Source of the DNA: Acidimicrobiia bacterium
Lineage (GTDB): Bacteria; Actinomycetota; Acidimicrobiia; Spongiisociales; ZC4RG35
Assembly (NCBI GenBank): GCA_040878225.1
Contig: JBBDMR010000165.1
Location: 1 to 48,005 of the forward strand
DNA: 48,005 nucleotides
Reading direction: 5' to 3'
The translations under genes and the position numbers were made by a program. The notes under the pieces were generated by a model. The model was not told where the DNA came from. It worked only from the letters and a program-made list of their open reading frames with translations, and searched no databases. Within the stretch, counting starts at the first letter, position 1, and every line of letters starts with the position of its first letter. Shown in pieces: positions 7,146-43,547 of the stretch.

Positions 7146-7356
7146 GGGCCTATCACTTTGTGTTGCGGAAATGCCTGATGCGCTCGTTCAGTTGAGCTTC
7201 GAGGCTATCGGTGGATCGTATCCAGATCATTGGTCCTTCTCCTTTGTCTCTGTGATGCCGGTTTGACTGTCTTGTGACATCACTATGACATCATTATGCC
7301 GTCAAGCAGAGAGTTTGTCAAGGGGTCAGAAACAACAACAGGGTTAGGCTTGCCCG

Positions 7357-7947
7357 ATGGCAGATATCGATGAGGGCAAAGTAGATAAGGGCAGGATCGA
7401 AAAGGCAGTTCGGGAGATCCTCGAGGCGATCGGTGACGACCCCGATCGGGAAGGGCTCCGAGAGACACCCGAACGCGTCGCCCGTTTCTATGCCGAGGTC
7501 TTCTCGAACATCGGCAATGACCCCGGCGAAGTCGTCGACGCCTTCTTTGGCGACGAGCACTACCAGGAGATCGTCATCGTCCGCGAGATCCCGTTCTACT
7601 CGATGTGTGAGCACCATCTCGTTCCGTTCCACGGCCAGGCCCACGTCGGCTACATGCCCAGGGGACGGGTCACCGGATTGTCGAAGCTCGCCCGCTTGGT
7701 CGACGGTTTCGCCCGAAGGCCACAGATGCAGGAGCGGTTGACGGCACAGGTGGCGGACAGCCTATGTGAGCGTCTCGACCCGCTCGGGGTGATCGTGGTC
7801 ATCGAAGCAGAACATCTGTGCATGTCGATGCGCGGTGTACGCAAGCCAGGCGCCAAGACTGTCACCTCGGCTGTGCGCGGGGTTATGGAGTCGAACGCCA
7901 AGACCAGATCGGAGGCGATGGCGCTCCTGTTCGGAACCGGGAGGTAG
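7357..7947 (+). CDS. folE: GTP cyclohydrolase I
   Basis: Contains '[20 protein letters not shown]' and '[12 protein letters not shown]'. Confidence 0.92.
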
Positions 7948-12782: not shown

Positions 12783-14273
12783 TTGACCGAAGCAAACGAA
12801 CCACCAGACGCCCTGCAGGCGACGCGCCAGGAGCACCACCAGGAGATCCTCGCCGGAGCAGGCTATCCGACAAGATTCGTGCGCTCAGCTTGGGCATCCG
12901 ACCTCCACGAGAAGTTCCAAGGGCTCGAGCCCGGGACCCACACCGAAGAGCAGGTAGCCGTTGCAGGACGGGTGATGCTGCACCGCTCTTTTGGCAAGCT
13001 CCAGTTCGCCACCATCAGGGACATGACCGGGACCATCCAACTGTTCGTCGACCGCGGCCACATCGGAGACGACCTCGCCGCCGAGTTCGGGCGGCTCGAC
13101 CTCGGCGACTGGGTGGGGGCATCGGGAACTGTGATGACCACGAGGAAGGGCGAGCTCAGCGTACAAGTCGATGAGTTCGTCATCCTTCAGAAGAGCCTGC
13201 GGCCGCTTCCGGACAAGTTTCATGGACTCCAGGACGTCGAACAGCGGAGCCGGCGGCGGTACCTCGACCTGATGGTCAATGACGATGCATTCGAAACCGC
13301 CATGACCCGGGCCCGGGTGCTGTCCGAACTGCGAAGAGAGTTCGAGAACCGCGGCTTCATCGAAGTGGAGACGCCGGTGCTGCTCTCCCAGGCGACGGGT
13401 GCGAATGCGAGGCCATTCGCCACCCGGCATGAGGCGCTTGATATGGAGATGTTCCTCCGAATCGCAACGGAGCTGCATCTGAAACGGCTGGTCATAGGAG
13501 GCATCGAGCGGGTGTTCGAGATCGGGAGGATCTTCAGGAACGAAGGCATCGATGCCACCCACAATCCCGAGTTCACCATGCTCGAGGCCTATCAGGCCCT
13601 TGCCGACTACAACGACATCATGGTGTTGGTCGAGGATGTCGTCTCCTCGGTGGCGGTCAAGGTGACCGGGTCGGAGACGATCACCTATCGCGACCGCGAG
13701 TTGTCGCTGTCCGCCCCGTTCCGTCGGGCGACGCTCGTCGACCTGGTGTCGGAGGTGGTGGGAGAGCCCGTCGACCTCGACACCCCGGTCGGGCGCCTCA
13801 TCGAAATCGCCGGAGAGAAAGGTGTGCCCCTCGAATCGGATTGGACACCGGGACGGGTCCTCCTCGAGCTCTACGAAGAGTTGGTCGAGCCGACCATCTG
13901 GGAGCCGACGTTCGTAACCCACCAGCCGGTGGAGGTCTCACCGCTTTCACGGCGGAACCAAAACGACCCCCGGCTCGCCGACCGCTTCGAGCTGGTCATC
14001 GCAGGCTCCGAATACGCAAATGCTTTCAGCGAGCTCAACGACGCCGACGACCAGCTGAGCCGGTTCGAGGCACAGGCCCGCGCCCGACTCGCCGGCGACG
14101 ATGAGGCCCACCCGGTCGACACCGACTACATAGAAGCCCTCGAATACGGCCTGCCCCCAACCGGCGGCCTGGGTATCGGAGTCGATCGCCTGGTGATGCT
14201 CCTGACCAATCAAACCCACATCAGAGAGGTAATCCTCTTCCCCACAATGCGAGCTGTTCCCCCAGAGACCTAG
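12783..14273 (+). CDS. lysS: Lysine--tRNA ligase (class II)
   Basis: OB-fold N-terminal domain, class II motifs ('FRNEGID..HNPEFTMLE', 'GLGIGVDRLVMLL'). The last ~7 codons lie inside repeat copy A. Confidence 0.95.
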   Translation: MTEANEPPDALQATRQEHHQEILAGAGYPTRFVRSAWASDLHEKFQGLEPGTHTEEQVAVAGRVMLHRSFGKLQFATIRDMTGTIQLFVDRGHIGDDLAAEFGRLDLGDWVGASGTVMTTRKGELSVQVDEFVILQKSLRPLPDKFHGLQDVEQRSRRRYLDLMVNDDAFETAMTRARVLSELRREFENRGFIEVETPVLLSQATGANARPFATRHEALDMEMFLRIATELHLKRLVIGGIERVFEIGRIFRNEGIDATHNPEFTMLEAYQALADYNDIMVLVEDVVSSVAVKVTGSETITYRDRELSLSAPFRRATLVDLVSEVVGEPVDLDTPVGRLIEIAGEKGVPLESDWTPGRVLLELYEELVEPTIWEPTFVTHQPVEVSPLSRRNQNDPRLADRFELVIAGSEYANAFSELNDADDQLSRFEAQARARLAGDDEAHPVDTDYIEALEYGLPPTGGLGIGVDRLVMLLTNQTHIREVILFPTMRAVPPET

Positions 14274-14510
14274 CGACCGGAGGGAGCGGCTGTTCCCCCA
14301 GAGACGAAGTCGAATGGGGGAAAGGTCCCTGCGCCCGACGAAGGAGGGCGGAGGTAAGGGGGACTGAGACTCTCCAAGTTGAGATCTAGCGCGCCAGGGC
14401 GCACCCCGAGCACCGTTGGTGGGATCGCCCCACCCTCCCCTCCGACCTAAAGGTCGGAGGTACTCCCTCCGCAAGCGGAGGGAGAGTTGCAAGCGGAGGG
14501 AGAGCGTCGC
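14251..14510. repeat. Mosaic hairpin-rich intergenic repeat, copy A
   Basis: Shares conserved blocks with 43078-43400, including an identical 34-nt core 'ggtaagggggactgagactctccaagttgagatc' (14353-14386), 'agggagcggctgttccccc', 'gaagtcgaa.gggggaaaggtc' and 'ctccctccgcaagcggagggagagt'. Lies between the convergent genes lysS and the polyprenyl synthase. Confidence 0.85.
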
Positions 14511-14525
14511 ATGATGCAGGTGGGC

Positions 14526-15515
14526 TCAGTCCCGGGCGCGTTCTACACGGGCTAGTAGGTAGGTGCCTAGCTCGGTCAGGATCTCGTGGGCGGGGCCCGG
14601 CTCGATGGATTCGAGGGCTGCCTCGGCTTTGGTGAGGCGGTCGGTGGCTGCGGTCAGGGCGTTTTCGATGTGGCCGCCCCGGCGGACCAGGGAAATGACT
14701 TCGGTGACTGTGTCGTCGTCGTAGGGGATGCCGGGCTTCAGAAGTTCCCGCACCCGTTCCCCATCAGGGCCCGCCGCTGCGGCCAGCACCGGCATGGTGA
14801 ATGTCCCCTCCCTGATGTCGGAGCCGGCTGGCTTGCCGATCGTGGACTCGTCGGCGACGAGGTCGAGGGCGTCGTCGGCGATCTGAAAGACCATCCCCAC
14901 TTCCCAACCCCAGGTCGAAAGGGCCTCGACCGTCTCGGGTGGGGCTTCTGCGGCCATCGCCCCGAGCCGGGCCGACGTCCGCACCAGGGAGGCGGTCTTC
15001 CCGCCGATCACTTTCTCGTAGTCGTCGAAGCCGTGGGTGAAGTCGCCTTCGAGCTGAAGCTCACGGGTCTGGCCCTCTACGAGTTCGGCGTAGGTGGCGG
15101 CGAGGAGACGGACCGACTCCTGGCTGAGATGGGTCGCAGCCACCTCCGAGGCTCGGGCCATAAGGAAGTCGCCGGCGAGAATGGCCACGGTGTTGGACCA
15201 GTTGGCATTGACCGACGCGGCCCCGCGCCGGGTATCGGATTCGTCGATCACGTCGTCGTGGTAGAGCGAGCCGACATGAATCAACTCGACTGACACCGCC
15301 GCTTCGACGGGCCGGCCGTCGCCCCGCGGCCCGAATTCGGCGGCCAGAAGAGCGAGAAGGGGCCGGAACCTCTTCCCGCCTGCGAGCAGAAGGTGCTGAG
15401 CGATCTTGGTGAGGTAGGCGTCGTCCGCGGTGGCTGCCTCCAGCAGCCTCTCCTCGACCGAGGCGAGAGAGTCCCAGATTCGAGGAATGCGAATGATGCT
15501 TTGGAGGTCGTCCAT
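14526..15515 (-). CDS. Polyprenyl diphosphate synthase (trans-IPPS family)
   Basis: Two Asp-rich motifs, 'LYHDDVIDE' and 'FQIADDALD'. Chain length cannot be judged by eye. Confidence 0.9.
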   Translation of the reverse strand: MDDLQSIIRIPRIWDSLASVEERLLEAATADDAYLTKIAQHLLLAGGKRFRPLLALLAAEFGPRGDGRPVEAAVSVELIHVGSLYHDDVIDESDTRRGAASVNANWSNTVAILAGDFLMARASEVAATHLSQESVRLLAATYAELVEGQTRELQLEGDFTHGFDDYEKVIGGKTASLVRTSARLGAMAAEAPPETVEALSTWGWEVGMVFQIADDALDLVADESTIGKPAGSDIREGTFTMPVLAAAAGPDGERVRELLKPGIPYDDDTVTEVISLVRRGGHIENALTAATDRLTKAEAALESIEPGPAHEILTELGTYLLARVERARD

Positions 15516-29695: not shown

Positions 29696-30211
29696 ATGGC
29701 AACAAAAACTGCAAGGTATTCCAACGGCGACAAAGTCGTTCACCCCCAGCACGGGGCGGCAACAGTCCTGAAGAAGGTCAAACAGGAGTTCGCCGGCGAA
29801 AAGATCGACTACTACATACTCGAGATCGCTACCGAGCAGCTCACCGTGATGGTCCCCCTCGACAAGGCAGAAGACCTGATCCGGCCCGTTATCTCCAAGA
29901 CGAAGTCACGCGAGGTTTTGAAGTCGTTGAAGGAAGAACCTGAAGAGGCCGGGTCGAACTGGAGCCGTTGGTATAAGGTGCTCACCGAGAAAATGACCTC
30001 GGGTGACATCTTCCAGGTTGCCGAAGTCGTCCGCGATCTCTCGTATGCCCAGCAGACCAAAGGCATCAGCCCTGCCCTGAAGCGAATGCTCTCCAAGGCC
30101 CGCACCACATTGAGCTCCGAAATCGCATTCAGCCTCCAGGTCGACGAGGACGAGGCGATCAAGAAGATCGACCGGGCCCTGCCCGAGATCGAGATAGAAG
30201 ACGAAAGTTGA
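29696..30211 (+). CDS. carD: CarD-family RNA-polymerase-binding transcription regulator
   Basis: 'GDKVVHPQHGAATV...IDYYILEI...LTVMVPLDKAE' followed by 'WSRWYK' and a leucine-zipper-like C-terminus. Confidence 0.92.
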   Translation: MATKTARYSNGDKVVHPQHGAATVLKKVKQEFAGEKIDYYILEIATEQLTVMVPLDKAEDLIRPVISKTKSREVLKSLKEEPEEAGSNWSRWYKVLTEKMTSGDIFQVAEVVRDLSYAQQTKGISPALKRMLSKARTTLSSEIAFSLQVDEDEAIKKIDRALPEIEIEDES

Positions 30212-30711
30212 GTCCGGAGCCCCCGGTGGCCACAACCAGGGTTGGCTGGGGGTTCGATGCCCATGCCCTCAACGACGAGCCACCACTCCTGCTCGGCGGC
30301 GTCGAAGTCTCCGACAGTTCCGGCCTGGCGGCCACCTCCGATGGTGATGTCCTCGCCCATGCGATAACCGACGCAATTCTCGGTGCCTGTGTCCTCGGCG
30401 ACCTCGGCGAGCACTTCCCGTCCACCGACCCTCGGTTTCACGGAGTCTCCTCGCTCAGCCTCCTCAGCGAGGCGGCAGGGATGGCTGCCAATTCGGGATT
30501 TGCCGTATCCCATGTCGATGCAACGGTCATCGCCGAGCGGATCAGAGTCGCTCCGCACCGTCAGGCGATTCGGGAGAACATCGCGGCGGCTCTCGGCATC
30601 CCCACCGATCTCATCTCTGTCAAAGCGACCAGCACCGACGGCCTCGGCTTCACCGGCACTTCCCAGGGCGTCGCCGCAGTAGCGGTGGTCACTGTGATCA
30701 CGACTTCATAG
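30208..30711 (+). CDS. ispF: 2-C-methyl-D-erythritol 2,4-cyclodiphosphate synthase
   Basis: 'VGWGFDAHAL' and 'SDGDVLAHAITDAILGA'. Overlaps the carD stop. No ispD lies between carD and ispF. Confidence 0.92.
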   Translation: MSPEPPVATTRVGWGFDAHALNDEPPLLLGGVEVSDSSGLAATSDGDVLAHAITDAILGACVLGDLGEHFPSTDPRFHGVSSLSLLSEAAGMAANSGFAVSHVDATVIAERIRVAPHRQAIRENIAAALGIPTDLISVKATSTDGLGFTGTSQGVAAVAVVTVITTS

Positions 30712-30720
30712 TCCGGATTC

Positions 30721-30903
30721 TCTTCACATCGTTGCACTGTGCACCGGGTTGCGGCTTTCGGCCCGTTTTGCACAACGATCCTCTTCACATCGTTGCACTG
30801 TGCACCGGGTTGCGGTTTCCGCCCCGTTTTGCACGGCGTCCCTCCTCACATCGGTGCACTGTGCACCGGGTTGCGGTTTTCGGCCCGTTTTGCACGACGT
30901 GGT
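30721..30903. repeat. Tandem repeat, 3 x 61 bp, filling the ispF-cysS spacer
   Basis: Units start at 30721, 30782 and 30843 ('tc[tc]tcacatcg[gt]tgcactgtgcaccgggttgcgg.tt.cg.cccgttttgcac....'). The period is not divisible by 3, and the same peptide string appears in all three frames of the ORF track. Confidence 0.92.
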
Positions 30904-30936: not shown

Positions 30937-32331
30937 ATGCTCCAGGTCTACAACACGCTCGGTCGCACCCTCCAGCCCTTCCTGCCTCGTGATGAGGGCA
31001 AAGTCGGTATCTACCTTTGCGGGCCGACGGTGCAGTCGGAGCCCCACGTCGGCCATGGTCGGTCGGCCGTCGCCTTCGATGTGATACGCCGTTATCTCAT
31101 CTGGAAGGGATACGATGTGACGCTGGTCCGCAACGTCACCGACATCGAGGACAAGATCATCAAGGCAGCCGAGGAGTCGGGTATCCCGGTACAGGAGCTG
31201 GCTGCGACGATGACCGAGCGTTTCGCCAACGGGTACGCTTCACTTGGCGTTGCCGCACCGGACTATGAGCCGAAGGCCACCGAAACCATCGCCGAGATCA
31301 TTGACCTGGTCAAACACCTGATCGATCGAGGGCTTGCCTACGAATCGGACGGCGATGTCTACTTTGCGGTGAGGGCCCTGCAGTCGTACGGGAAGCTCTC
31401 CGGCCACAACCCGGACGAGCTCCGATCGGGCTACCGGATCGAGGTTGGTGAGGCGAAACACGACCCGCTCGACTTCGCCCTGTGGAAAGGGACGAAACCG
31501 GGCGAGCCGTGGTGGGACTCGCCCTGGGGCGCGGGCCGGCCGGGTTGGCATATCGAGTGCTCGGCAATGGCCGAGAAGTACCTCGGGCATGGTTTCGACA
31601 TCCACGGCGGTGGTACCGACCTCATCTTCCCCCACCATGAGAACGAGATCGCCCAGTCGGAGGGAGCGTCGGGGGAAACCTTCGCCCGTTATTGGCTTCA
31701 CAACGGGATGGTGAACCTGGGCGGGGAGAAGATGGCGAAGTCGACCGGCCGCGTCGTCGACCTCGACTCCCTTGCCAGGAAGGTGGGCGGTCGTGCCCTG
31801 CGCATGCTGATGGTGCGCGCCCACTACCGATCGCCACTCGAATACACCGAGGACCTGGTCGAGGAGGCGGCTGAGTCGCTGGATCGCCTCGACCGGCTCC
31901 GAGAACGCGGTGTCGCCGGCGACCCGGACCCCGAGGTCATGGCCCGCTTCGAGGCAGCCATGGACGACGACTTCGGCACACCTCAGGCGGTATCGGTTCT
32001 TTTCGAAGCGGTCCGGGAGGGCAACAAGGCGCTCGACGACGGCGGAGATGCGTCGGCGTTGCTCGGCGCCGTCGAGGAGATTGTGGATGTCCTCGGTCTC
32101 GACGAAGGGACCCTCCCCAAAGAGGCAGCTATCGACCTTGGTGGCCTTGCCTCCAGGTTCGATGTCGGAGGCGGCGACCTCGAAGCGACCGTCAGCGCCC
32201 TCATCGAGAAGAGATCCGAGGCGCGGGCAGAGCGGCGCTTCGACGACGCAGATGCAATCAGAGACGGGCTCGACGCCGCCGGCATCCTTCTGGAGGACGG
32301 GCCTGATGGCACCCGCTGGCTACGGAAGTAG
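30937..32331 (+). CDS. cysS: Cysteine--tRNA ligase
   Basis: '[16 protein letters not shown]' (HIGH motif) and 'KMAKSTG' (KMSKS motif). Confidence 0.95.
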
Positions 32332-33035: not shown

Positions 33036-33111
33036 GCCGGGTTAGCTCAGTTGGTAGAGCAGCTGATTTGTAATCAGCAGGTCATCGGTTCAAATCCGGT
33101 ACCCGGCTCCA
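33036..33111 (+). tRNA. tRNA-Thr (anticodon UGU), CCA encoded
   Basis: Hand-folded cloverleaf: acceptor GCCGGGT/ACCCGGC, D-arm GCTC/GAGC, anticodon stem GCTGA/TCAGC with loop TT-TGT-AA, T-arm ATCGG-TTCAAAT-CCGGT. Confidence 0.92.
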
Positions 33112-35806: not shown

Positions 35807-35850
35807 TTTGTTATCAGCAGGTCATCGGTTCAAATCCGGTACCCGGCTCC
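35807..35850 (+). repeat. Displaced tRNA-Thr 3' fragment (att-like direct repeat)
   Basis: 'tttgtTatcagcaggtcatcggttcaaatccggtacccggctcc' versus 33067-33110 'tttgtAatcag...'. Identity is 43/44. Confidence 0.9.
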
Positions 35851-36919: not shown

Positions 36920-37050
36920 ATCATCGACTCGCAACGCCGAGCCCGGTCAATAAGCCGGGACGGGGAACCCAAATTTGGGGCGTATCCCGGTCAAATGGCC
37001 GGGTAGAGCACCTTCCAGCTCGAGCCCGTCAGCTAACCCCGTAGGCCTGA
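36920..37050 (+). promoter_or_regulatory. ydaO/kimA-type c-di-AMP riboswitch-like leader
   Basis: 'ACGGGGAACCCA' (36960-71), 'GGGGCGUAUC' (36977-86) and 'CCCGUCAGCUAACCCCGUAGGCC' (37025-47) match my recollection of the ydaO consensus (GGGGAnCCCA ... GGGGUGAAUC ... CCGnCAGCUAACCUCGUAAGC). Two near-identical hairpins, CCCGG-N8-CCGGG (36942-59 and 36986-37003), give pseudo-twofold symmetry. It ends at the SD (GAGGAAGGG) of the antiporter gene. Confidence 0.7.
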
Positions 37051-37065
37051 GGAAGGGATGGTTCA

Positions 37066-39162
37066 ATGGAACCTTTTGCTGGAATAGCCCACGAGGACCT
37101 GCTCAAACTCGTCCTGTCAGTGGCGCTACTCCTCGGCGCTGCCCGACTGCTCGGCGGCCTCATGGAACGATTCAAACAGCCTGCCGTCATCGGGGAGATC
37201 ATGGCCGGGGTCATTCTCGGCCCGTCGGTACTTGGAGGGATATTTCCTGCTTTCGGGCGGCTGGTAGTGCCCCAGACCCTGATCCAATCGCAGTTGCTCG
37301 ACGTGGTCGCCCTGATCGGTGTGATGACACTGATCCTGATGGTCGGGATGGAGACAGACCTGGGACTGATCCGGGCCAGGCTGAAGAGCGCCACGGCCGT
37401 CGGGCTGGGAGGGCTGCTCATCCCTTTTGCCTTCGGGCTGGCGCTGGGTAATTGGCTCCCTGACTCACTGTTGGGTTCGGCGTCGAACCGGGCTGCGTTC
37501 AATATGTTCCTCGCCGTGGCTCTCGCACTTTCGGCGATACCGGTCCTCGCAAAGATCCTCTCCGATCTCCGTCTCTTGCGCAGCGAGTTCGGCCAGACCG
37601 CACTTGCCGCCGGAATGATCGACGACGTGCTCGGCTGGACCCTCCTCGGCCTGGTCACCTCGCTGGCGACTGCCGGTGCCGTGACGTTGGGAGACTTCGC
37701 CTCCACGCTCGGTGCCGTGATCGTGTTCATCGCGCTCACCGTCCTCATCATCGGGCCCGCTACCCGGTGGAGCCTCGACCTGGTCCTCGACCGGGTGCAG
37801 ATCAGGGACCGGGTCCTCACCCTCGTGATCGTCTTCGCCTTCGGCTGGGGTGCGTTCACCCAGGCGCTCCATCTCGAGCCGATCCTCGGGGCGTTCGCGG
37901 TCGGGATGATGTTCGGTCGGCTGCGCCGCCTTCCCGTGGAGACCGGGCGCCAACTGGAAAGTCTCACTTATGGGATCTTCGCTCCCATCTTCCTGGCTAC
38001 TGCCGGGCTCCGGCTCGACATCGGCGTTCTCTTCGAGGGCAGTCTGCTCTGGATCACCGGCGCAATGCTGGCCACGGCTGCTGCCGGGAAACTGATCGGC
38101 TCGTACCTGGGCGCAAGGCTTCTCGGAGGGATCGGGAACCGTCATGCCTGGGCGTACGGGGTTGCCCTGAACGCCAGAGGAGTGCTCGGGGTGATCGTTG
38201 CCAGCATCGGGCTCTCGATGGGCATCTTCGGAGTCGAGCTCTACACAATGCTGGTTGTCGTGTCGCTTGCAACCTCGGTGATGGCTCCTATCGGGCTCCG
38301 CTACCTGATGAAGGATGAGGTCGAGGCCACCGTGAGCGGAGAACCCGCTCTTGCCCTGAACCGAATTCTCGCCCCGGTCCGTCTGCGCGAGGACGGGTCG
38401 ACGCGCTCGTTCGATCCCGCCATCCTGGGAAGTCTCCGGGGCGAATCGCCCGGCGTGACTCTGATGACCGTAGTGAGCCCGGAGGAACGCAAGACCGCCG
38501 GGCAGTACCTATCCGACCTGGCGGACCGGATTCCTGAAGGGCTCGAGGTGACGAAACGGGTGGCGACAGGAGATCCGGTCGAAGCCATCGTCAGGGAGGC
38601 TGAGACAGGGTATGACATGGTCGTGCTGGGCGCACCTGACCCCAAGGCTGGGCCCGACTACCTGTTCGAAGCCACTCTCGACGAGATTGTCCGGTTGGTT
38701 TCTTGCCCGAGCATGATCTTCTCATCGCGGGGCAGCCAATGGCCTCCCCGGCGGATCATGGTCCCCACAGGTGGTGCCGATGCTGCCTCCCGTGCGGCCG
38801 ATCTGGCGTTCGCGCTGAGTGATGAACACAGCCAGGTCCTCTTGTTCCACTCCATCGACCCGGAATCAGCAACCGAAATGGCGATGTCGCTGCAAACCAC
38901 GCCGGCCTCGCGGCTCGAAGTCGGCCACGGCGTGGTCAGCGCCCTCCGGGCCGTTGGCGAAAGGATGGGAGTGTCTGTGGCCACCGAGGTTGTGATGGGA
39001 TCGGGTGTGGTCGATTCGATACTCGAAAGAGCAGCACAGGACATCGACCTGCTCATCATCGGAACGAATGTCAGAGCCGGCTCGCATCGTCTCTACCTGG
39101 GCTCGAAGGTAGAACGGCTGCTCGTCGAGGCTCCGTGCTCGACGATCGTCTTCAACGTCTGA
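37066..39162 (+). CDS. Cation:proton antiporter (CPA2 family) fused to two C-terminal universal-stress-protein domains
   Basis: N-terminal 'QPAVIGEIMAGVILGPSVLG' and ~12 TM segments. The C-terminal ~280 aa contains two USP-like halves ('VTKRVATGDPVEAIVREAETGYDMVVLGA' and 'ATEVVMGSGVVDSILERAAQDIDLLIIGT'). Confidence 0.88.
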   Translation: MEPFAGIAHEDLLKLVLSVALLLGAARLLGGLMERFKQPAVIGEIMAGVILGPSVLGGIFPAFGRLVVPQTLIQSQLLDVVALIGVMTLILMVGMETDLGLIRARLKSATAVGLGGLLIPFAFGLALGNWLPDSLLGSASNRAAFNMFLAVALALSAIPVLAKILSDLRLLRSEFGQTALAAGMIDDVLGWTLLGLVTSLATAGAVTLGDFASTLGAVIVFIALTVLIIGPATRWSLDLVLDRVQIRDRVLTLVIVFAFGWGAFTQALHLEPILGAFAVGMMFGRLRRLPVETGRQLESLTYGIFAPIFLATAGLRLDIGVLFEGSLLWITGAMLATAAAGKLIGSYLGARLLGGIGNRHAWAYGVALNARGVLGVIVASIGLSMGIFGVELYTMLVVVSLATSVMAPIGLRYLMKDEVEATVSGEPALALNRILAPVRLREDGSTRSFDPAILGSLRGESPGVTLMTVVSPEERKTAGQYLSDLADRIPEGLEVTKRVATGDPVEAIVREAETGYDMVVLGAPDPKAGPDYLFEATLDEIVRLVSCPSMIFSSRGSQWPPRRIMVPTGGADAASRAADLAFALSDEHSQVLLFHSIDPESATEMAMSLQTTPASRLEVGHGVVSALRAVGERMGVSVATEVVMGSGVVDSILERAAQDIDLLIIGTNVRAGSHRLYLGSKVERLLVEAPCSTIVFNV

Positions 39163-41868: not shown

Positions 41869-43104
41869 GTGCCTTCGGATCGCCTCAGACGTAGCGCCCT
41901 GATCGTCTGGACGACGGTCGGGGGAATCGCTCTCTTCGCAGTCTTCCTCTATGTCGCCGAGTCGGTCCGGATCATCTGGCTCCCGCTGGCATTTGCCGCA
42001 GGACTCGTATTCATCCTCGAGCCGACCGTCCGGGCCTTCGACCGTATCGGGTTCCGTAGGGTGTTCAGCGCCATTTTTGCCCTGGTTGCCCTCGCCGGGC
42101 TGATTGTTGCCATCGTCGTGCTGGTTTTGCCCACGATTCGGGAGCAGGGTGCTGAGTTCATCGGAGACCTCCCCCGACTTTGGGGTGGCATCGTCGACGG
42201 TCTTCGCGACCTCGCCGAACGCTTCGGATACGACGGTGAGGAACTGCTGAGCCAGGGGACCATCGAGGAGTGGCTCAACGACCCGACGAATCAGGAGACT
42301 CTGCAAGAGTTGCTCTTCGGTTTCGGCGCCGGCGCCGGGACCGTGATCAGGGGCGTGACGGAGGCAGTTCTGGTGCTGGTACTGGCCCCGGTGCTTGCCC
42401 TTTACATCCTCATCGACCTCGACAAATACCGGGCTCAGGTACTGGAACTGACTCCCCCCGAGCACAGAGCAGAAATCGCCTTTGTCGGTGGCGAGGTGGG
42501 GACGGCTCTGGGATCCTTCGTTCGCGGCCAGCTGCTCGTGGCGCTCATCGTCGGCATACTCTCCAGTCTCGGTATGTGGGCGATCGATCTCCCGTTCTGG
42601 CTGCTGATCGGCATGGTCGCCGGCCTGCTCAACCTCATCCCCTTTCTCGGGCCCTTCGTCGGCGGTGCCCTGGCCGCAGGGGTGGCGCTCCTGGCCGGAA
42701 ACCTAACTCAGGCGATCTGGGCCGTAGTCATCTTTACTGCCATCCAGCAGGTCGACAACCACGTGATCACGCCTCTGGTGCAGCGGACGAGAGTGAAGCT
42801 CTCACCGCTTGTAATCGTGCTGGCGCTGATCATCGGAGGCTCGATCGCCGGCCTGTTGGGTGTCCTCATCGCTGTCCCGGTCACGGCGGCGGTCCGCATC
42901 ATCGTCGGCCACCTCTGGCGGACCAGGGTCCTCGGACAATCGTGGGAAGAGGCCAGCGAGGCAATGATCGAAGTGACCCCGCCCCCGGACCGAATCGCCA
43001 ACCTGCGGAGACGGAACGTAGACCAGTCGCGACTGTTCGACACCGCCGAAATGCAGAGCTGGTCAGAAGGCGACGCACCCCCGGAAGACCCCCAGCGACC
43101 GTAG
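41869..43104 (+). CDS. AI-2E family transporter (PerM/UPF0118)
   Basis: Polytopic, with the 'IPFLGPFVGG' and 'QQVDNHVITPLV' motifs typical of the family. The last ~9 codons lie inside repeat copy B. Confidence 0.88.
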   Translation: MPSDRLRRSALIVWTTVGGIALFAVFLYVAESVRIIWLPLAFAAGLVFILEPTVRAFDRIGFRRVFSAIFALVALAGLIVAIVVLVLPTIREQGAEFIGDLPRLWGGIVDGLRDLAERFGYDGEELLSQGTIEEWLNDPTNQETLQELLFGFGAGAGTVIRGVTEAVLVLVLAPVLALYILIDLDKYRAQVLELTPPEHRAEIAFVGGEVGTALGSFVRGQLLVALIVGILSSLGMWAIDLPFWLLIGMVAGLLNLIPFLGPFVGGALAAGVALLAGNLTQAIWAVVIFTAIQQVDNHVITPLVQRTRVKLSPLVIVLALIIGGSIAGLLGVLIAVPVTAAVRIIVGHLWRTRVLGQSWEEASEAMIEVTPPPDRIANLRRRNVDQSRLFDTAEMQSWSEGDAPPEDPQRP

Positions 43105-43400
43105 GGAGCGGCTGTTCCCCCGGAGGCCCAGCGACCGTAGGGAGCGGCTGTTCCCCCGGAGATGAAGTCGAACGGGGGAAAGGTCGGTGTCGGCCCGAAA
43201 GGCCGAGAGGTAAGGGGGACTGAGACTCTCCAAGTTGAGATCGAGTCGCGTGTGCGGCGGTGCGAGAGGAGTGTTGGTGGGAACTCCCCACCCTCCCGGC
43301 TCCTTCGTCGCCGGCGCTCCCTCCGCAAGCGGAGGGAGAGTGGCAAGCGGAGGGAGAGTTGCAAGCGGAGGGAGAGTGGCAAGCGGAGGGCGAGACGCGC
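43078..43400. repeat. Mosaic hairpin-rich intergenic repeat, copy B
   Basis: Same block order as copy A. The core 43209-43242 is identical to 14353-14386. It has an extra 35-nt 5' unit and four (versus two) 18-nt 'gcaagcggagggagagtk' tandem units. Lies between the convergent AI-2E and livF genes. Confidence 0.85.
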
Positions 43401-43547
43401 TGTGGGAGAGCAATAGGGGGTCGCCTCCCCTGGCGGCGCGGTTTGGATCGCCAATCCGACCGCATTTCGACGTGTATCCCAGGCCGTTTGCGACGCCATC
43501 CAACTTGTCGGGGGGATATATGGGGGGTCGTCCCCCCTTGCCATCGT

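What the first reader, a model, noticed from the sequence alone, without database searches (positions are those of the whole stretch)
14251..14510. Mosaic structured repeat present twice, with conserved junctions and divergent but still self-complementary hairpins
The regions 14251-14510 and 43078-43400 share the same ordered conserved blocks, including an identical 34-nt core. The conserved hairpin TTCCCCC-N16-GGGGGAA is present in both. The GGTGGG-N5-CCCACC hairpin keeps its stem while its loop differs (atcgc versus aactc). At least two intervening segments differ completely in sequence yet each still folds. Segment 1 has cgccc/gggcg in copy A versus tcggcc/ggccga in copy B. Segment 3 has cctccgacc/ggtcggagg in copy A versus ccggc/gccgg in copy B. 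Both copies end in the hairpin CTCCCTCCG-CAAG-CGGAGGGAG. Preserving structure while sequence changes is what a functional RNA, or a BIME/REP-like mosaic element built from palindromic units, would show. Both copies lie between convergent genes. I cannot match the element to a described family.
Basis: seen in the sequence. Interest (0 to 1): 0.65.

Follow-up and report, generated by a model that had tools for sequence, protein, structure and literature searches.

The report
Mosaic hairpin repeat family of Acidimicrobiia
The two look-alike stretches are copies of an apparently undescribed, many-copy DNA repeat built from six small hairpins that has spread into the ends of genes in soil and sediment actinobacteria; it is a new family of a familiar kind (like REP/BIME, BOX or TRIT repeats), not a one-off RNA gene.

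Summary
Copy A (14253-14504) and copy B (about 43078-43394) share the same ordered blocks, including a 36-nt identical core, and no Rfam family matches. They are not a private pair. A 22-mer of the core and a degenerate hairpin pattern recovered 47 further loci from Acidimicrobiia MAGs and soil or sediment metagenomes. A covariance model found about 70 units in them. Every unit has the same grammar: (U)n-A-b-C-d-E-F-G, six co-oriented GC-rich hairpins joined by conserved purine-rich linkers. Modules come in alternative versions, and there are partial units, tandem arrays and amplified half-hairpins at both ends. Hairpin b has 23 sequence versions, and all of them fold. The family behaves like selfish REP/BIME- or BOX-like DNA:
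- It sits at gene 3' ends and supplies the last codons and stop of lysS.
- One unit-sized empty-site allele exists.
- Orthologous sites carry different versions, or opposite orientations.
- An IS110-family element is inserted exactly in hairpin G.
- Intact DUF559 (Vsr-like) nuclease genes sit antisense inside arrays at five independent loci.
The element appears in metatranscriptome assemblies, but I found no evidence for a discrete RNA. Best reading: a new mosaic interspersed repeat family, co-transcribed as 3'-UTR hairpins. How it moves is unknown; the DUF559 link is the interesting lead.

The parts
14253..14270 (+). Copy A: leading partial unit, made of the 5' arm of hairpin A plus AGAGACC. 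It encodes the last codons of lysS (…AVPPET).
   Evidence: (family D2). The lysS ORF 12783-14273 was identified by Pfam.
14271..14289 (+). Copy A: U unit (TAGCGACCGGAGGGAGCGG). Its first three bases are the lysS stop codon. The unit resembles the 3' arm of hairpin G.
14293..14322 (+). Copy A: hairpin A, version A1 (TTCCCCC-N16-GGGGGAA).
   Evidence: helix 1: 6 of 10 pairs have double changes between versions A1 and A2.
14332..14350 (+). Copy A: hairpin b (CGCCC-GACGAAGGA-GGGCG). This is the commonest of the 23 versions.
   Evidence: (helix 2).
14351..14386 (+). Copy A: conserved core, module C version C1. It is identical in copy B and holds the 22-mer that matches exactly at 10 loci of two MAGs.
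14387..14417 (+). Copy A: variable spacer d. Its length and sequence differ in every copy. In other loci this is where a DUF559 gene sits.
14418..14438 (+). Copy A: hairpin E (GGTGGG-ATCGC-CCCACC) plus the conserved CTCC tail.
   Evidence: helix 4, nearly invariant.
14439..14460 (+). Copy A: hairpin F, version F2 (CCTCCGACC-TAAA-GGTCGGAGG).
   Evidence: The same version occurs in L001, L007, L012, L024, L025 and L053.
14463..14504 (+). Copy A: terminal hairpin G (CTCCCTCCG-CAAG-CGGAGGGAG) followed by one extra 18-nt copy of its loop and 3' arm.
   Evidence: (family D1).
43078..43150 (+). Copy B: a degenerate leading arm and two 36-nt U units (43091-43161 by TRF). The TAG at 43102-43104 inside a U unit is the stop codon of the AI-2E transporter gene.
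43151..43180 (+). Copy B: hairpin A, version A1.
43190..43206 (+). Copy B: hairpin b, version TCGGCC-CGAAA-GGCCGA.
43207..43242 (+). Copy B: conserved core, module C1.
43243..43275 (+). Copy B: variable spacer d. It is unique sequence; its depth in metagenomes (about 10-28) is close to that of the single-copy flanks.
43276..43295 (+). Copy B: hairpin E (loop AACTC) plus its tail.
43296..43314 (+). Copy B: hairpin F, version F1 (CCGGC-TCCTTCGTC-GCCGG). This is the commonest version in the family.
43317..43394 (+). Copy B: terminal hairpin G followed by three more 18-nt copies of its loop and 3' arm.

Best explanation
Both regions are members of a previously undescribed family of mosaic, hairpin-rich interspersed repeats of Acidimicrobiia-type actinobacteria.

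A unit is about 165-220 nt. It consists of six co-oriented GC-rich stem-loops in a fixed order (A, b, C, E, F, G), joined by conserved purine-rich linkers, with a free-length spacer d between C and E. Modules exist in interchangeable versions: A1/C1 or A2/C2, F1 or F2, and many versions of b. Hairpin A2 is an inverted relative of hairpin G, so the ends resemble palindromic terminal inverted repeats.

Shown here:
- The family is dispersed at high copy number in gene 3' ends.
- Units are gained or lost as blocks.
- Units are shuffled and amplified in tandem, plausibly through the repeated GGAGGGAG microhomologies.
- Orthologous sites carry different versions or opposite orientations.
- Units can replace the last codons of a gene.
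- Units attract other mobile DNA: an IS110-family element and DUF559 nuclease genes.

Inferred:
- The family spreads at the DNA level as a non-autonomous, selfish or semi-domesticated element.
- Its hairpins are maintained because the single-stranded fold, mainly of the + strand, is what is recognised or selected.
- Once inserted it is co-transcribed with the upstream gene. Its hairpins then act as 3'-end structures (a transcript stop or an exonuclease block) between convergent genes that otherwise have no U-tract terminator.

The enzyme that moves it is not identified.
For: Copy number and spread:
- 10 exact core matches in two Acidimicrobiia MAGs.
- 37 metagenome loci found with a hairpin-E pattern.
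- About 70 forward covariance-model matches of at least 60 bits in 281 kb of loci.
- Module k-mers are 50-100 times deeper than the single-copy flanks in metagenomes that hold this genome.

Architecture:
- The module order and orientation are fixed, with partial and tandem units such as C2-E-F1-G x3.

Location:
- By a crude GC3-based ORF context, 15 arrays lie between convergent genes, 9 between tandem genes and 2 between divergent genes.
- The stop codons of lysS and of the AI-2E gene lie inside the element.

Mobility and turnover:
- In X4, a contig that joins L023 827 to 1013 skips exactly one unit (185 nt). Its depth (24) equals that of the flanks.
- L013/L018 and L027/L028 carry arrays in opposite orientation at orthologous sites. 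L005/L034, L009/L011 and L010/L035 carry different subfamilies.
- An IS110-family element is inserted precisely in hairpin G (L052 against L051). REP sequences are known IS targets (PMC1525189).

Hairpin maintenance:
- 95.7% of cells are paired, and 120 cells carry double changes against 37 in shuffles.
- All 23 versions of b fold, and 20 of them have G...A purine loops on the + strand.
- G·T exceeds A·C in helices 1-3.

Transcription and terminators:
- Metatranscriptome contigs cover the whole unit and run from coding sequence into module A.
- No canonical terminator or promoter was found in either intergenic region.
- No Rfam family matches.
Against: - No transposase, target-site duplication or conserved target was identified, so the mode of spread is inferred only.
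- The one empty allele could be a precise deletion rather than the pre-insertion state.
- All related sequences come from MAGs and metagenome contigs, which break at repeats. True per-genome copy numbers and orientation statistics are therefore unknown, and the gene contexts rest on a crude GC3-based ORF call.
- The + strand asymmetry (G-U pairs, GNRA-like loops) and the near-perfect conservation of the unpaired linkers across species could instead reflect selection on an RNA.
- The terminator or stabiliser role is untested. Mycobacterial RNA polymerase needs a U-tract in vitro (PMC3993855), and none is present here.
- The RNA runs are unstranded contig assemblies and may contain DNA.
Confidence: 0.72

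Rival explanations
1. The elements are non-autonomous derivatives of, or homing targets for, a selfish element whose enzyme is the small DUF559 (Vsr-like PD-(D/E)XK) endonuclease. Modules A-b-C and E-F-G would be the two ends, and spacer d the cargo site. The nuclease would nick or cut folded or mismatched hairpins, and repair would copy units to new places.
For: Intact DUF559 ORFs of 116-123 aa (Pfam E 1e-28; PDB 3HRL relative) lie inside arrays at five independent loci, and always antisense to the modules. The loci are next to recR, sufC, LOR, PNP/cyclase and Pyr_redox genes.

At two of these loci the architecture is the same: [A2-b-C2-d] <-DUF559 [d-E-F2-G].

The genes are under strong purifying selection (dN/dS 0.08-0.14) although dS is 0.66 to saturated. 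The gene-plus-module association has therefore outlived much divergence and relocation.

Spacer d is the most variable part of every unit.

In E. coli K-12 the DUF559 gene ycjD also has a repeat within 200 nt of its 3' end. That repeat has a median of 15 places per genome.
Against: - Only one occupied site in about 70 units was recovered by searching for the repeat.
- The position of the gene relative to the modules is not constant: inside d at two loci, between units at two others, and mixed at the Pyr_redox locus (L059), with d-E-F-G on one side and a G end on the other.
- Arrays also collect IS110 and IS481 elements, so they may simply be safe landing pads.
- No DUF559 gene is in the 48-kb window.
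- No nuclease activity or recognition site is known, and I found no literature link.
Confidence: 0.2
2. The unit is primarily a host-selected transcript-end signal, a multi-hairpin and largely bidirectional terminator or 3'-end protector comparable to the mycobacterial TRIT motif. On this reading it is spread and homogenised by recombination, not by selfish transposition.
For: - Units lie at gene ends, mostly between convergent genes.
- They often overlap the stop codon, as reported for TRIT (PMC3152330).
- There is no alternative terminator in either window site.
- Orthologous sites stay occupied across species even when version and orientation change.
- Both ends present the same kind of hairpin to incoming polymerase: G(CUUG)C on the + strand at A2 and on the - strand at G.
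- The unit is present in RNA assemblies.
Against: - There is no U-tract.
- Units are far larger and more complex than a terminator needs to be.
- Arrays of up to three or more units, truncated units and a unit-sized empty allele look like parasitic dynamics.
- The RNA depth profile shows no drop across the unit that would mark a termination point.
Confidence: 0.3
3. The unit is a trans- or cis-acting structured non-coding RNA (an sRNA, a protein sponge or a 3'-UTR regulator) whose function depends on the conserved purine-rich, Shine-Dalgarno-like linkers.
For: - Compensatory changes occur in helices A, b and F.
- 20 of 23 b loops are G...A purine loops on the + strand.
- G·T exceeds A·C on the + strand in the 5' half.
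- The fold is more stable than shuffles: z = -4.2 on the + strand and -3.1 on the - strand.
- The linkers are identical across species.
- The unit is transcribed.
Against: - Orientation is opposite at orthologous sites, and 3 of 9 units in tandem-gene contexts are antisense.
- Truncated and shuffled units are common.
- There is no promoter.
- Units overlap coding ends.
- The apparent excess of the 5' half in RNA disappeared when a reference with the common module versions was used.
- No Rfam match.
- Double changes in DNA palindromes can arise by template switching without selection on RNA. That point is my own knowledge and was not tested.
Confidence: 0.1

Closest known systems
REP / BIME (bacterial interspersed mosaic elements) of Escherichia coli and other Proteobacteria
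   Same: Both are high-copy extragenic palindromic units combined with conserved linker motifs into mosaics and tandem clusters. Both lie at gene 3' ends and between convergent genes, and both are co-transcribed. Both are specific insertion targets of IS110-family and other IS elements (PMC1525189; here).
   Different: REPs are single 20-40 nt palindromes that alternate in orientation within a BIME. Here six different hairpins are co-oriented in a fixed order in a unit of about 190 nt. No RAYT-type transposase or GTAG motif was seen. The host is a high-GC Gram-positive lineage, and there is no sequence similarity.
BOX elements of Streptococcus pneumoniae (boxA-boxB(n)-boxC), with RUP and SPRITE
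   Same: Both are modular repeats with fixed module order, a variable number of internal or terminal modules and extensive secondary structure. Both are intergenic, co-transcribed and thought to be parasitic, with no identified transposase. Both modify gene ends (PMC3049150).
   Different: The sequence and taxon are unrelated. BOX has three modules and amplifies only boxB. Here half-hairpin units amplify at both ends, modules have alternative versions, and a nuclease gene is associated.
TRIT (Tuberculosis Rho-independent terminator) motif of Mycobacterium
   Same: Both are actinobacterial, sequence- and structure-conserved, multi-copy palindromic motifs tightly associated with gene termini. 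Both commonly overlap the stop codon and lack a canonical U-tract (PMC3152330).
   Different: TRIT is a single hairpin motif reported as restricted to Mycobacterium. This element is a six-hairpin mosaic with arrays and module swapping. Terminator activity is not shown for this element.
MITEs and IS200/IS605-derived or RAYT-mobilised palindromic elements (Correia, ERIC, PATE, REPIN)
   Same: Both are small, non-coding and structured, with related inverted ends: hairpin A2 resembles the reverse complement of hairpin G. Both show unit-sized presence/absence polymorphism and insert at or into gene ends.
   Different: No target-site duplication, no conserved target and no cognate transposase were found. 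The ends are themselves palindromes, so the similarity to terminal inverted repeats is weak evidence.
E. coli repeat next to ycjD (I recall it as the 'box C' repeat; the name is from memory and was not verified)
   Same: It is a C-run/G-run hairpin repeat (…CCCTCTCCCCAGAGGGGCGAGGGG…) present at a median of 15 places per E. coli genome. It lies within 200 nt of the 3' end of the DUF559 gene ycjD. This parallels the DUF559-repeat association seen here.
   Different: It is a single short unit with no demonstrated homology to the modules here. It is one locus only, so the association could be coincidence.

Membership tests
Any Rfam RNA family | Covariance-model match at or above the family's gathering score | tested here: not met
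   The whole-window gathering scan found only a c-di-AMP riboswitch and a tRNA. A permissive scan of 14150-14600 gave only chance-level hits; the best was HgcC at 17.9 bits against a threshold of 50.
REP/BIME | High-copy extragenic palindromic units at gene 3' ends, clustered into mosaics with conserved linkers | tested here: met
REP/BIME | Palindromic units of one type alternating in orientation within a cluster | tested here: not met
   All modules of an array share one orientation and a fixed order. Only A2 and G are inverted relatives of each other.
REP/BIME | Cognate RAYT (Y1 transposase) gene and a conserved GTAG next to the hairpin | not tested
   I ran no systematic search for Y1 transposases, and whole genomes were not available. 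No GTAG is conserved at the module borders in the alignments.
REP/BIME | Used as a specific target by IS elements | tested here: met
   An IS110-family element of about 1.3 kb is inserted between GGGTGGG and GGGAGTA of hairpin G in L052, compared with L051.
MITE | Terminal inverted repeats | tested here: inconclusive
   CTGTCCTCCCGCTTGCGGGAGGA (A2) resembles the reverse complement of the G end, CTCTCCCTCCGCTTGCGGAGGGAG. Both are palindromes, however, and version A1 is different.
MITE | Target-site duplication flanking each copy | tested here: not met
   No direct repeat was found at the borders of single units or at the empty/occupied pair of L023.
MITE | An autonomous partner with the same ends that encodes a transposase | tested here: inconclusive
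   The only gene found between element ends is DUF559, a nuclease and not a known transposase, and its position varies.
BOX-like modular repeat | Fixed module order with a variable number of repeated modules; no coding capacity; extensive structure; intergenic | tested here: met
   There is no sequence relation to pneumococcal BOX, so this is a resemblance in kind only.
TRIT-like terminator motif | Conserved hairpin motif concentrated at gene termini and overlapping stop codons | tested here: met
   compared with PMC3152330.
TRIT-like terminator motif | Causes transcript 3' ends | not testable with these tools
   Only unstranded contig assemblies of metatranscriptomes were available. Their depth profile shows no clear drop across the unit.
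Structured ncRNA (general) | Covariation beyond what relatedness explains, one transcribed strand, discrete ends | tested here: inconclusive
   Double changes exceed the shuffled and slid controls, but most are inherited module swaps. Orientation relative to genes is not fixed. No discrete RNA is evident.

The most novel reading that the evidence does not exclude
DUF559 proteins, small Vsr-like PD-(D/E)XK endonucleases of unknown function that are widespread in bacteria, are the enzymes of a so far unrecognised class of selfish element. On this reading they home into, or mobilise, G/C-run hairpin repeats. The Acidimicrobiia mosaic repeat would be the gene-less, MITE-like form, and the E. coli ycjD-adjacent repeat a distant parallel. 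The conserved G·T-containing hairpins would be the nuclease's folded-DNA substrate.
Probability: 0.15. Interest if true: 0.8.

Novelty: new variant of a known kind. Interest (0 to 1): 0.5.

Why it matters
Small structured interspersed repeats (REP/BIME, BOX, Correia, TRIT) shape transcript ends, mRNA stability, genome rearrangement and IS targeting, but they have been studied almost only in a few cultivated pathogens.

This family shows that uncultivated, environmentally widespread Acidimicrobiia carry an elaborate six-hairpin mosaic version at tens of copies per genome. It breaks metagenome assemblies, rewrites gene C-termini and serves as a landing pad for IS110-family (bridge-RNA) elements.

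The repeated, selection-maintained embedding of DUF559 nuclease genes in the arrays gives a concrete and testable hypothesis for two open questions: what DUF559 proteins do, and how transposase-less repeats spread.

A covariance model of the unit would also improve the annotation of these genomes by masking repeats, correcting gene 3' ends and marking likely transcript ends.

Tried and rejected
1. A discrete RNA from the 5' half (A-b-C). Metatranscriptome contigs laid on copy A showed depth of 900-2800 over A-b-C against 35-70 over E-G. On a reference with the common versions (F1, standard E and G), E and F were as deep as b, with RNA/DNA ratios of about 0.3-0.4 across A2-b-E-F; only hairpin G ran lower. 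The first result was therefore a variant-mismatch artefact.
2. A hammerhead-like reading of CUGAGA in the core. It does not fit the CUGANGA core, is absent from version C2, and has no Rfam hit.
3. A small ORF behind the Shine-Dalgarno-like GGAGG motifs. There is no ATG or GTG, and the frame is destroyed by indels in d.
4. Long-range pairing that closes the unit, as in the single-sequence minimum-energy fold. The consensus fold does not keep it; that fold contains only six local hairpins.
5. Sense orientation relative to the upstream gene as evidence for a 3'-UTR function. This is trivial for convergent gene pairs. Tandem contexts are 6 sense to 3 antisense, and two orthologous sites are inverted.
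6. Target-site duplication or a conserved target. TAG often precedes CTGTTCCCCC, but it is usually just the stop codon of the neighbouring gene. No duplication was found at the L023 empty/occupied pair.
7. Replication-strand bias. The window holds no origin, so this could not be assessed.
8. Literature searches for Acidimicrobiia repeats, RAYT/REPIN in Actinobacteria, and DUF559 or ycjD linked to repeats found nothing relevant.
9. I looked for DNA runs from the same ice study as the RNA runs, to normalise RNA depth. None was listed.
Full report
**1. The observation**

I read both regions and aligned them. They share the same ordered blocks at 80% identity.

- The identical core is 36 nt, at 14351-14386 and 43207-43242. 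It has only these two matches in the window at up to 3 mismatches, against none in 100 shuffles.
- Both copies lie between convergent genes. Copy A is between lysS(+) and a polyprenyl synthase(-). Copy B is between an AI-2E-family transporter(+) and an ABC ATPase(-).
- The elements are longer than stated: 14253-14504 and about 43078-43394.
- Both ends carry tandem half-hairpin units. There is a 36-nt unit x2 and an 18-nt unit x3.9 in copy B, and one extra of each in copy A.
- The 5' end of copy A supplies the last codons (…AVPPET) and the TAG stop of lysS. A TAG inside a U unit ends the transporter gene next to copy B.
- Independent metagenome assemblies that contain this genome at about 10x reproduce copy B exactly.

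**2. Not a known RNA**

Rfam at gathering thresholds finds only a c-di-AMP riboswitch and tRNA-Thr in the window. A permissive scan of copy A returns only chance-level hits.

**3. A large family**

A 22-mer from the core matched exactly at 10 loci in two Acidimicrobiia MAGs, 8 in JTS-RE118 and 2 in al_S4C811. A degenerate pattern for hairpin E found 37 metagenome contigs from soils and sediments.

Mapping nine module probes on all loci showed one grammar everywhere: (U)n-A-b-C-d-E-F-G, always in this order and orientation.

- There are two linked versions of A and C. A1 goes with C1, as in the window; A2 goes with C2.
- There are two unrelated versions of F.
- Units can be partial, and arrays run head to tail, for example C2-E-F1-G x3 in L011 and L038.

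A covariance model built from 20 full units found about 70 forward-strand matches of at least 60 bits in 281 kb of loci. In the window it found just the two known copies, at 195 and 166 bits.

In metagenomes that hold this genome, module k-mers are 50-100 times deeper than the single-copy flanks. This is an upper bound for copies per genome, because related organisms share the modules. Word-index searches show the element in soil, sediment, lake, rhizosphere and ice samples.

**4. Anatomy**

The consensus fold is six local hairpins with no supported long-range pairing.

- Hairpin A2 (TCCTCCC-GCTTGC-GGGAGGA) is an inverted relative of hairpin G (CTCCCTCC-GCAAGC-GGAGGGAG). The unit therefore has palindromic ends that resemble terminal inverted repeats.
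- The U unit looks like a G 3' arm fused to an A 5' arm.
- The 10-mer GGAGGGAGAG occurs in both C2 and G, about 127 nt apart. That spacing is the period of the C2-to-G tandem arrays, which suggests amplification by slippage or unequal exchange at microhomologies. This is my inference.

**5. Covariation**

On 46 full units aligned to the model, 95.7% of cells are paired. Sixteen of 43 pairs carry double changes, in 120 cells against 37 in shuffles. No shuffle in 500 reached this, and all slid controls were far lower.

The support is in helices A, b and F; E and G are almost invariant. Much of the signal is inherited version swapping. Hairpin b is the exception: it has 23 distinct sequences in 51 instances, and all fold.

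Twenty of the 23 b loops start with G and end with A on the + strand. G·T mismatches outnumber A·C in helices 1-3, by 43:1, 6:1 and 43:3, but not in helices 4-6. The + strand of the 5' half is therefore the strand that folds. These data cannot separate RNA from single-stranded DNA. The alignment was also fitted to the model, which biases it towards the structure.

**6. Behaviour as DNA**

- *Context.* By a crude GC3-filtered ORF call, 15 arrays lie between convergent genes, 9 between tandem genes (6 sense, 3 antisense) and 2 between divergent genes.
- *Orthologous sites.* L005/L034, L009/L011 and L010/L035 carry different subfamilies or unit numbers at the same site. L013/L018 and L027/L028 carry arrays in opposite orientation, filling the whole spacer from the stop codon to the next conserved flank.
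- *Empty site.* In sediment run X4, a contig joins L023 position 827 to 1013 and skips one unit plus about 20 nt (185 nt in all). Its depth is 24, the same as the flanks, so that population lacks the unit. I saw no target duplication.
- *IS target.* L052 differs from the otherwise 99.6% identical L051 by an IS110-family element of about 1.3 kb (DEDD_Tnp_IS110 plus Transposase_20). It is inserted between GGGTGGG and GGGAGTA of hairpin G. REP sequences are used as targets in the same way (PMC1525189).

**7. DUF559 genes**

One locus (L039, L025, L056, L057) has about 425 bp inserted in spacer d. On the opposite strand this encodes a 123-aa DUF559 protein (Pfam E 1.2e-28; NCBIfam PRK09767-like; PDB 3HRL relative). 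The L025 copy is frameshifted.

Homologues at 77-89% identity lie at four further, unrelated loci. All are intact, all are antisense, and all are inside arrays.

- At the recR locus (L053/L058) and the PNP/cyclase locus (L056), the architecture is the same: [A2-b-C2-d] <-DUF559 [d-E-F2-G].
- At the sufC locus (L050/L054) and the LOR locus (L049), the gene lies between a G end and an A1 start.
- At the Pyr_redox locus (L059) the arrangement is mixed: d-E-F1-G lies on the gene's start side and a G end on its stop side.
- dN/dS is 0.08-0.14 and dS is 0.66 or higher. The protein is functional and the association is old.

I found no paper linking DUF559 to repeats.

As a side test I looked at E. 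coli K-12 ycjD, a DUF559 gene. It has a C-run/G-run hairpin repeat about 160 nt beyond its 3' end, and a partial inverted copy at its stop codon. That repeat occurs at a median of 15 places per E. coli genome. This is a lead and does not demonstrate a link.

**8. RNA**

Only unstranded contig assemblies of metatranscriptomes were available. They contain the element, including contigs that run from a coding 3' end into module A.

An apparent 30-fold excess of A-b-C over E-G on copy A vanished on a reference unit with the common versions. There, E and F were as deep as b, and RNA/DNA ratios were about 0.3-0.4 across A2-b-E-F; only hairpin G ran lower. I therefore withdraw the idea of a discrete sub-RNA.

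The pattern scans find no sigma-70-like promoter and no U-tract terminator in either intergenic region. The unit folds better than shuffles on both strands, with z = -4.2 on + and -3.1 on -.

**9. Interpretation**

The best-supported reading is a new family of mosaic, hairpin-rich interspersed repeats that spreads and turns over at the DNA level and is tolerated at gene ends. There it is co-transcribed and probably serves as 3'-end structure.

It works like REP/BIME, pneumococcal BOX (PMC3049150) and mycobacterial TRIT (PMC3152330). It is not a member of any of them, for three reasons:
- Its units do not alternate in orientation.
- No RAYT gene or GTAG motif was seen.
- There is no sequence relation.

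The functional-RNA reading is weakened by inverted orthologous sites, truncated units and the empty allele. The mobilising activity is unknown; the DUF559 nuclease is the most interesting candidate.

**10. Limits**

- All relatives come from fragmented MAGs and contigs.
- Gene contexts rest on a heuristic ORF call.
- The covariation counts are not phylogeny-aware.
- The RNA data are unstranded assemblies from other communities.
- I did not search for Y1 transposases or compare against IS/MITE databases.
- That the window's organism is an Acidimicrobiia-type actinobacterium is inferred from the MAG titles of the related loci. It is also supported by actinobacterial gene order (panC-lysS, clpC, radA-disA, carD-ispF-cysS) and by the c-di-AMP riboswitch.

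Noticed in passing
L039 3021-3389 (-); L056 3854-4225; L053 3854-4222; L049 2746-3096; L054 3854-4204; L059 858-1220: Intact DUF559 (Vsr-like endonuclease) genes are embedded antisense in arrays of the repeat at five unrelated loci. Two of the loci share the architecture [A2-b-C2-d]<-gene[d-E-F2-G]. dN/dS is 0.08-0.14. The automatic gene calls for several of them are truncated (67-74 aa) or start falsely inside the repeat (157 aa).
   Followed up: partly
L052 about 887-2196, compared with L051 about 810: An IS110-family insertion sequence of about 1.3 kb is inserted precisely inside hairpin G of a repeat unit, between GGGTGGG and GGGAGTA. In MAG JTS-RE118 (L054) the same site also holds an IS481-family element.
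   Followed up: partly
L023 828-1012, compared with run X4: A metagenome contig joins position 827 to 1013, so it lacks exactly one repeat unit (185 nt). Its depth equals that of the flanks. This is an empty-site allele with no obvious target duplication.
   Followed up: partly
L060 (E. coli K-12 NC_000913.3) 7178-7252 and 7390-7420: The E. coli DUF559 gene ycjD has a C-run/G-run hairpin repeat about 160 nt beyond its 3' end, and a partial inverted copy at its stop codon. The repeat has a median of 15 places per E. coli genome. I recall it as the 'box C' repeat, but that name is from memory.
   Followed up: partly
L048 2500-2690 and 3488-3984: A 2.6-Mb closed metagenomic genome carries a distantly related repeat (hairpins CTCTCCCCCCGGAGGAACGACGGGGGGAG, weak model hits of 25-29 bits) on both sides of a DUF559 gene. 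The site, downstream of pknB, is orthologous to one that holds the family in L047.
   Followed up: no
window 33036-33111 and 35807-35850: The last 44 nt of tRNA-Thr(TGT) are repeated at 98% identity 2.7 kb downstream. The ORFs in between have no Pfam match and local GC is lower. This looks like a small element integrated at the tRNA, or the remnant of one.
   Followed up: partly
window 30716-30898: There are three tandem copies of a 61-nt unit (89-90% identical) in the spacer between ispF (30208-30711) and cysS (30937-32331). Their function is unknown.
   Followed up: no
window 36925-37062: A c-di-AMP (ydaO/yuaA) riboswitch (81 bits, E 1.8e-17) lies directly upstream of a 698-aa ORF (37066-39162) that I did not analyse.
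   Followed up: no
window 43522-43537; L011 (- strand, oriented positions about 2545-2600): A different small hairpin, GGGGGGTCGTCCCCCC with a TTGC flank, lies 130 nt downstream of copy B. It recurs twice in tandem as TTGCAAGGGGGGACGACCCCCC next to an array in L011. It may be a second, smaller repeat family.
   Followed up: no
L009 161-347 compared with L011 5070-5487 (upstream of a nucS-like gene): The same intergenic site in two related species holds one A1/C1 unit in one species. In the other it holds an A2/C2 unit followed by two extra C2-E-F1-G repeats.
   Followed up: yes
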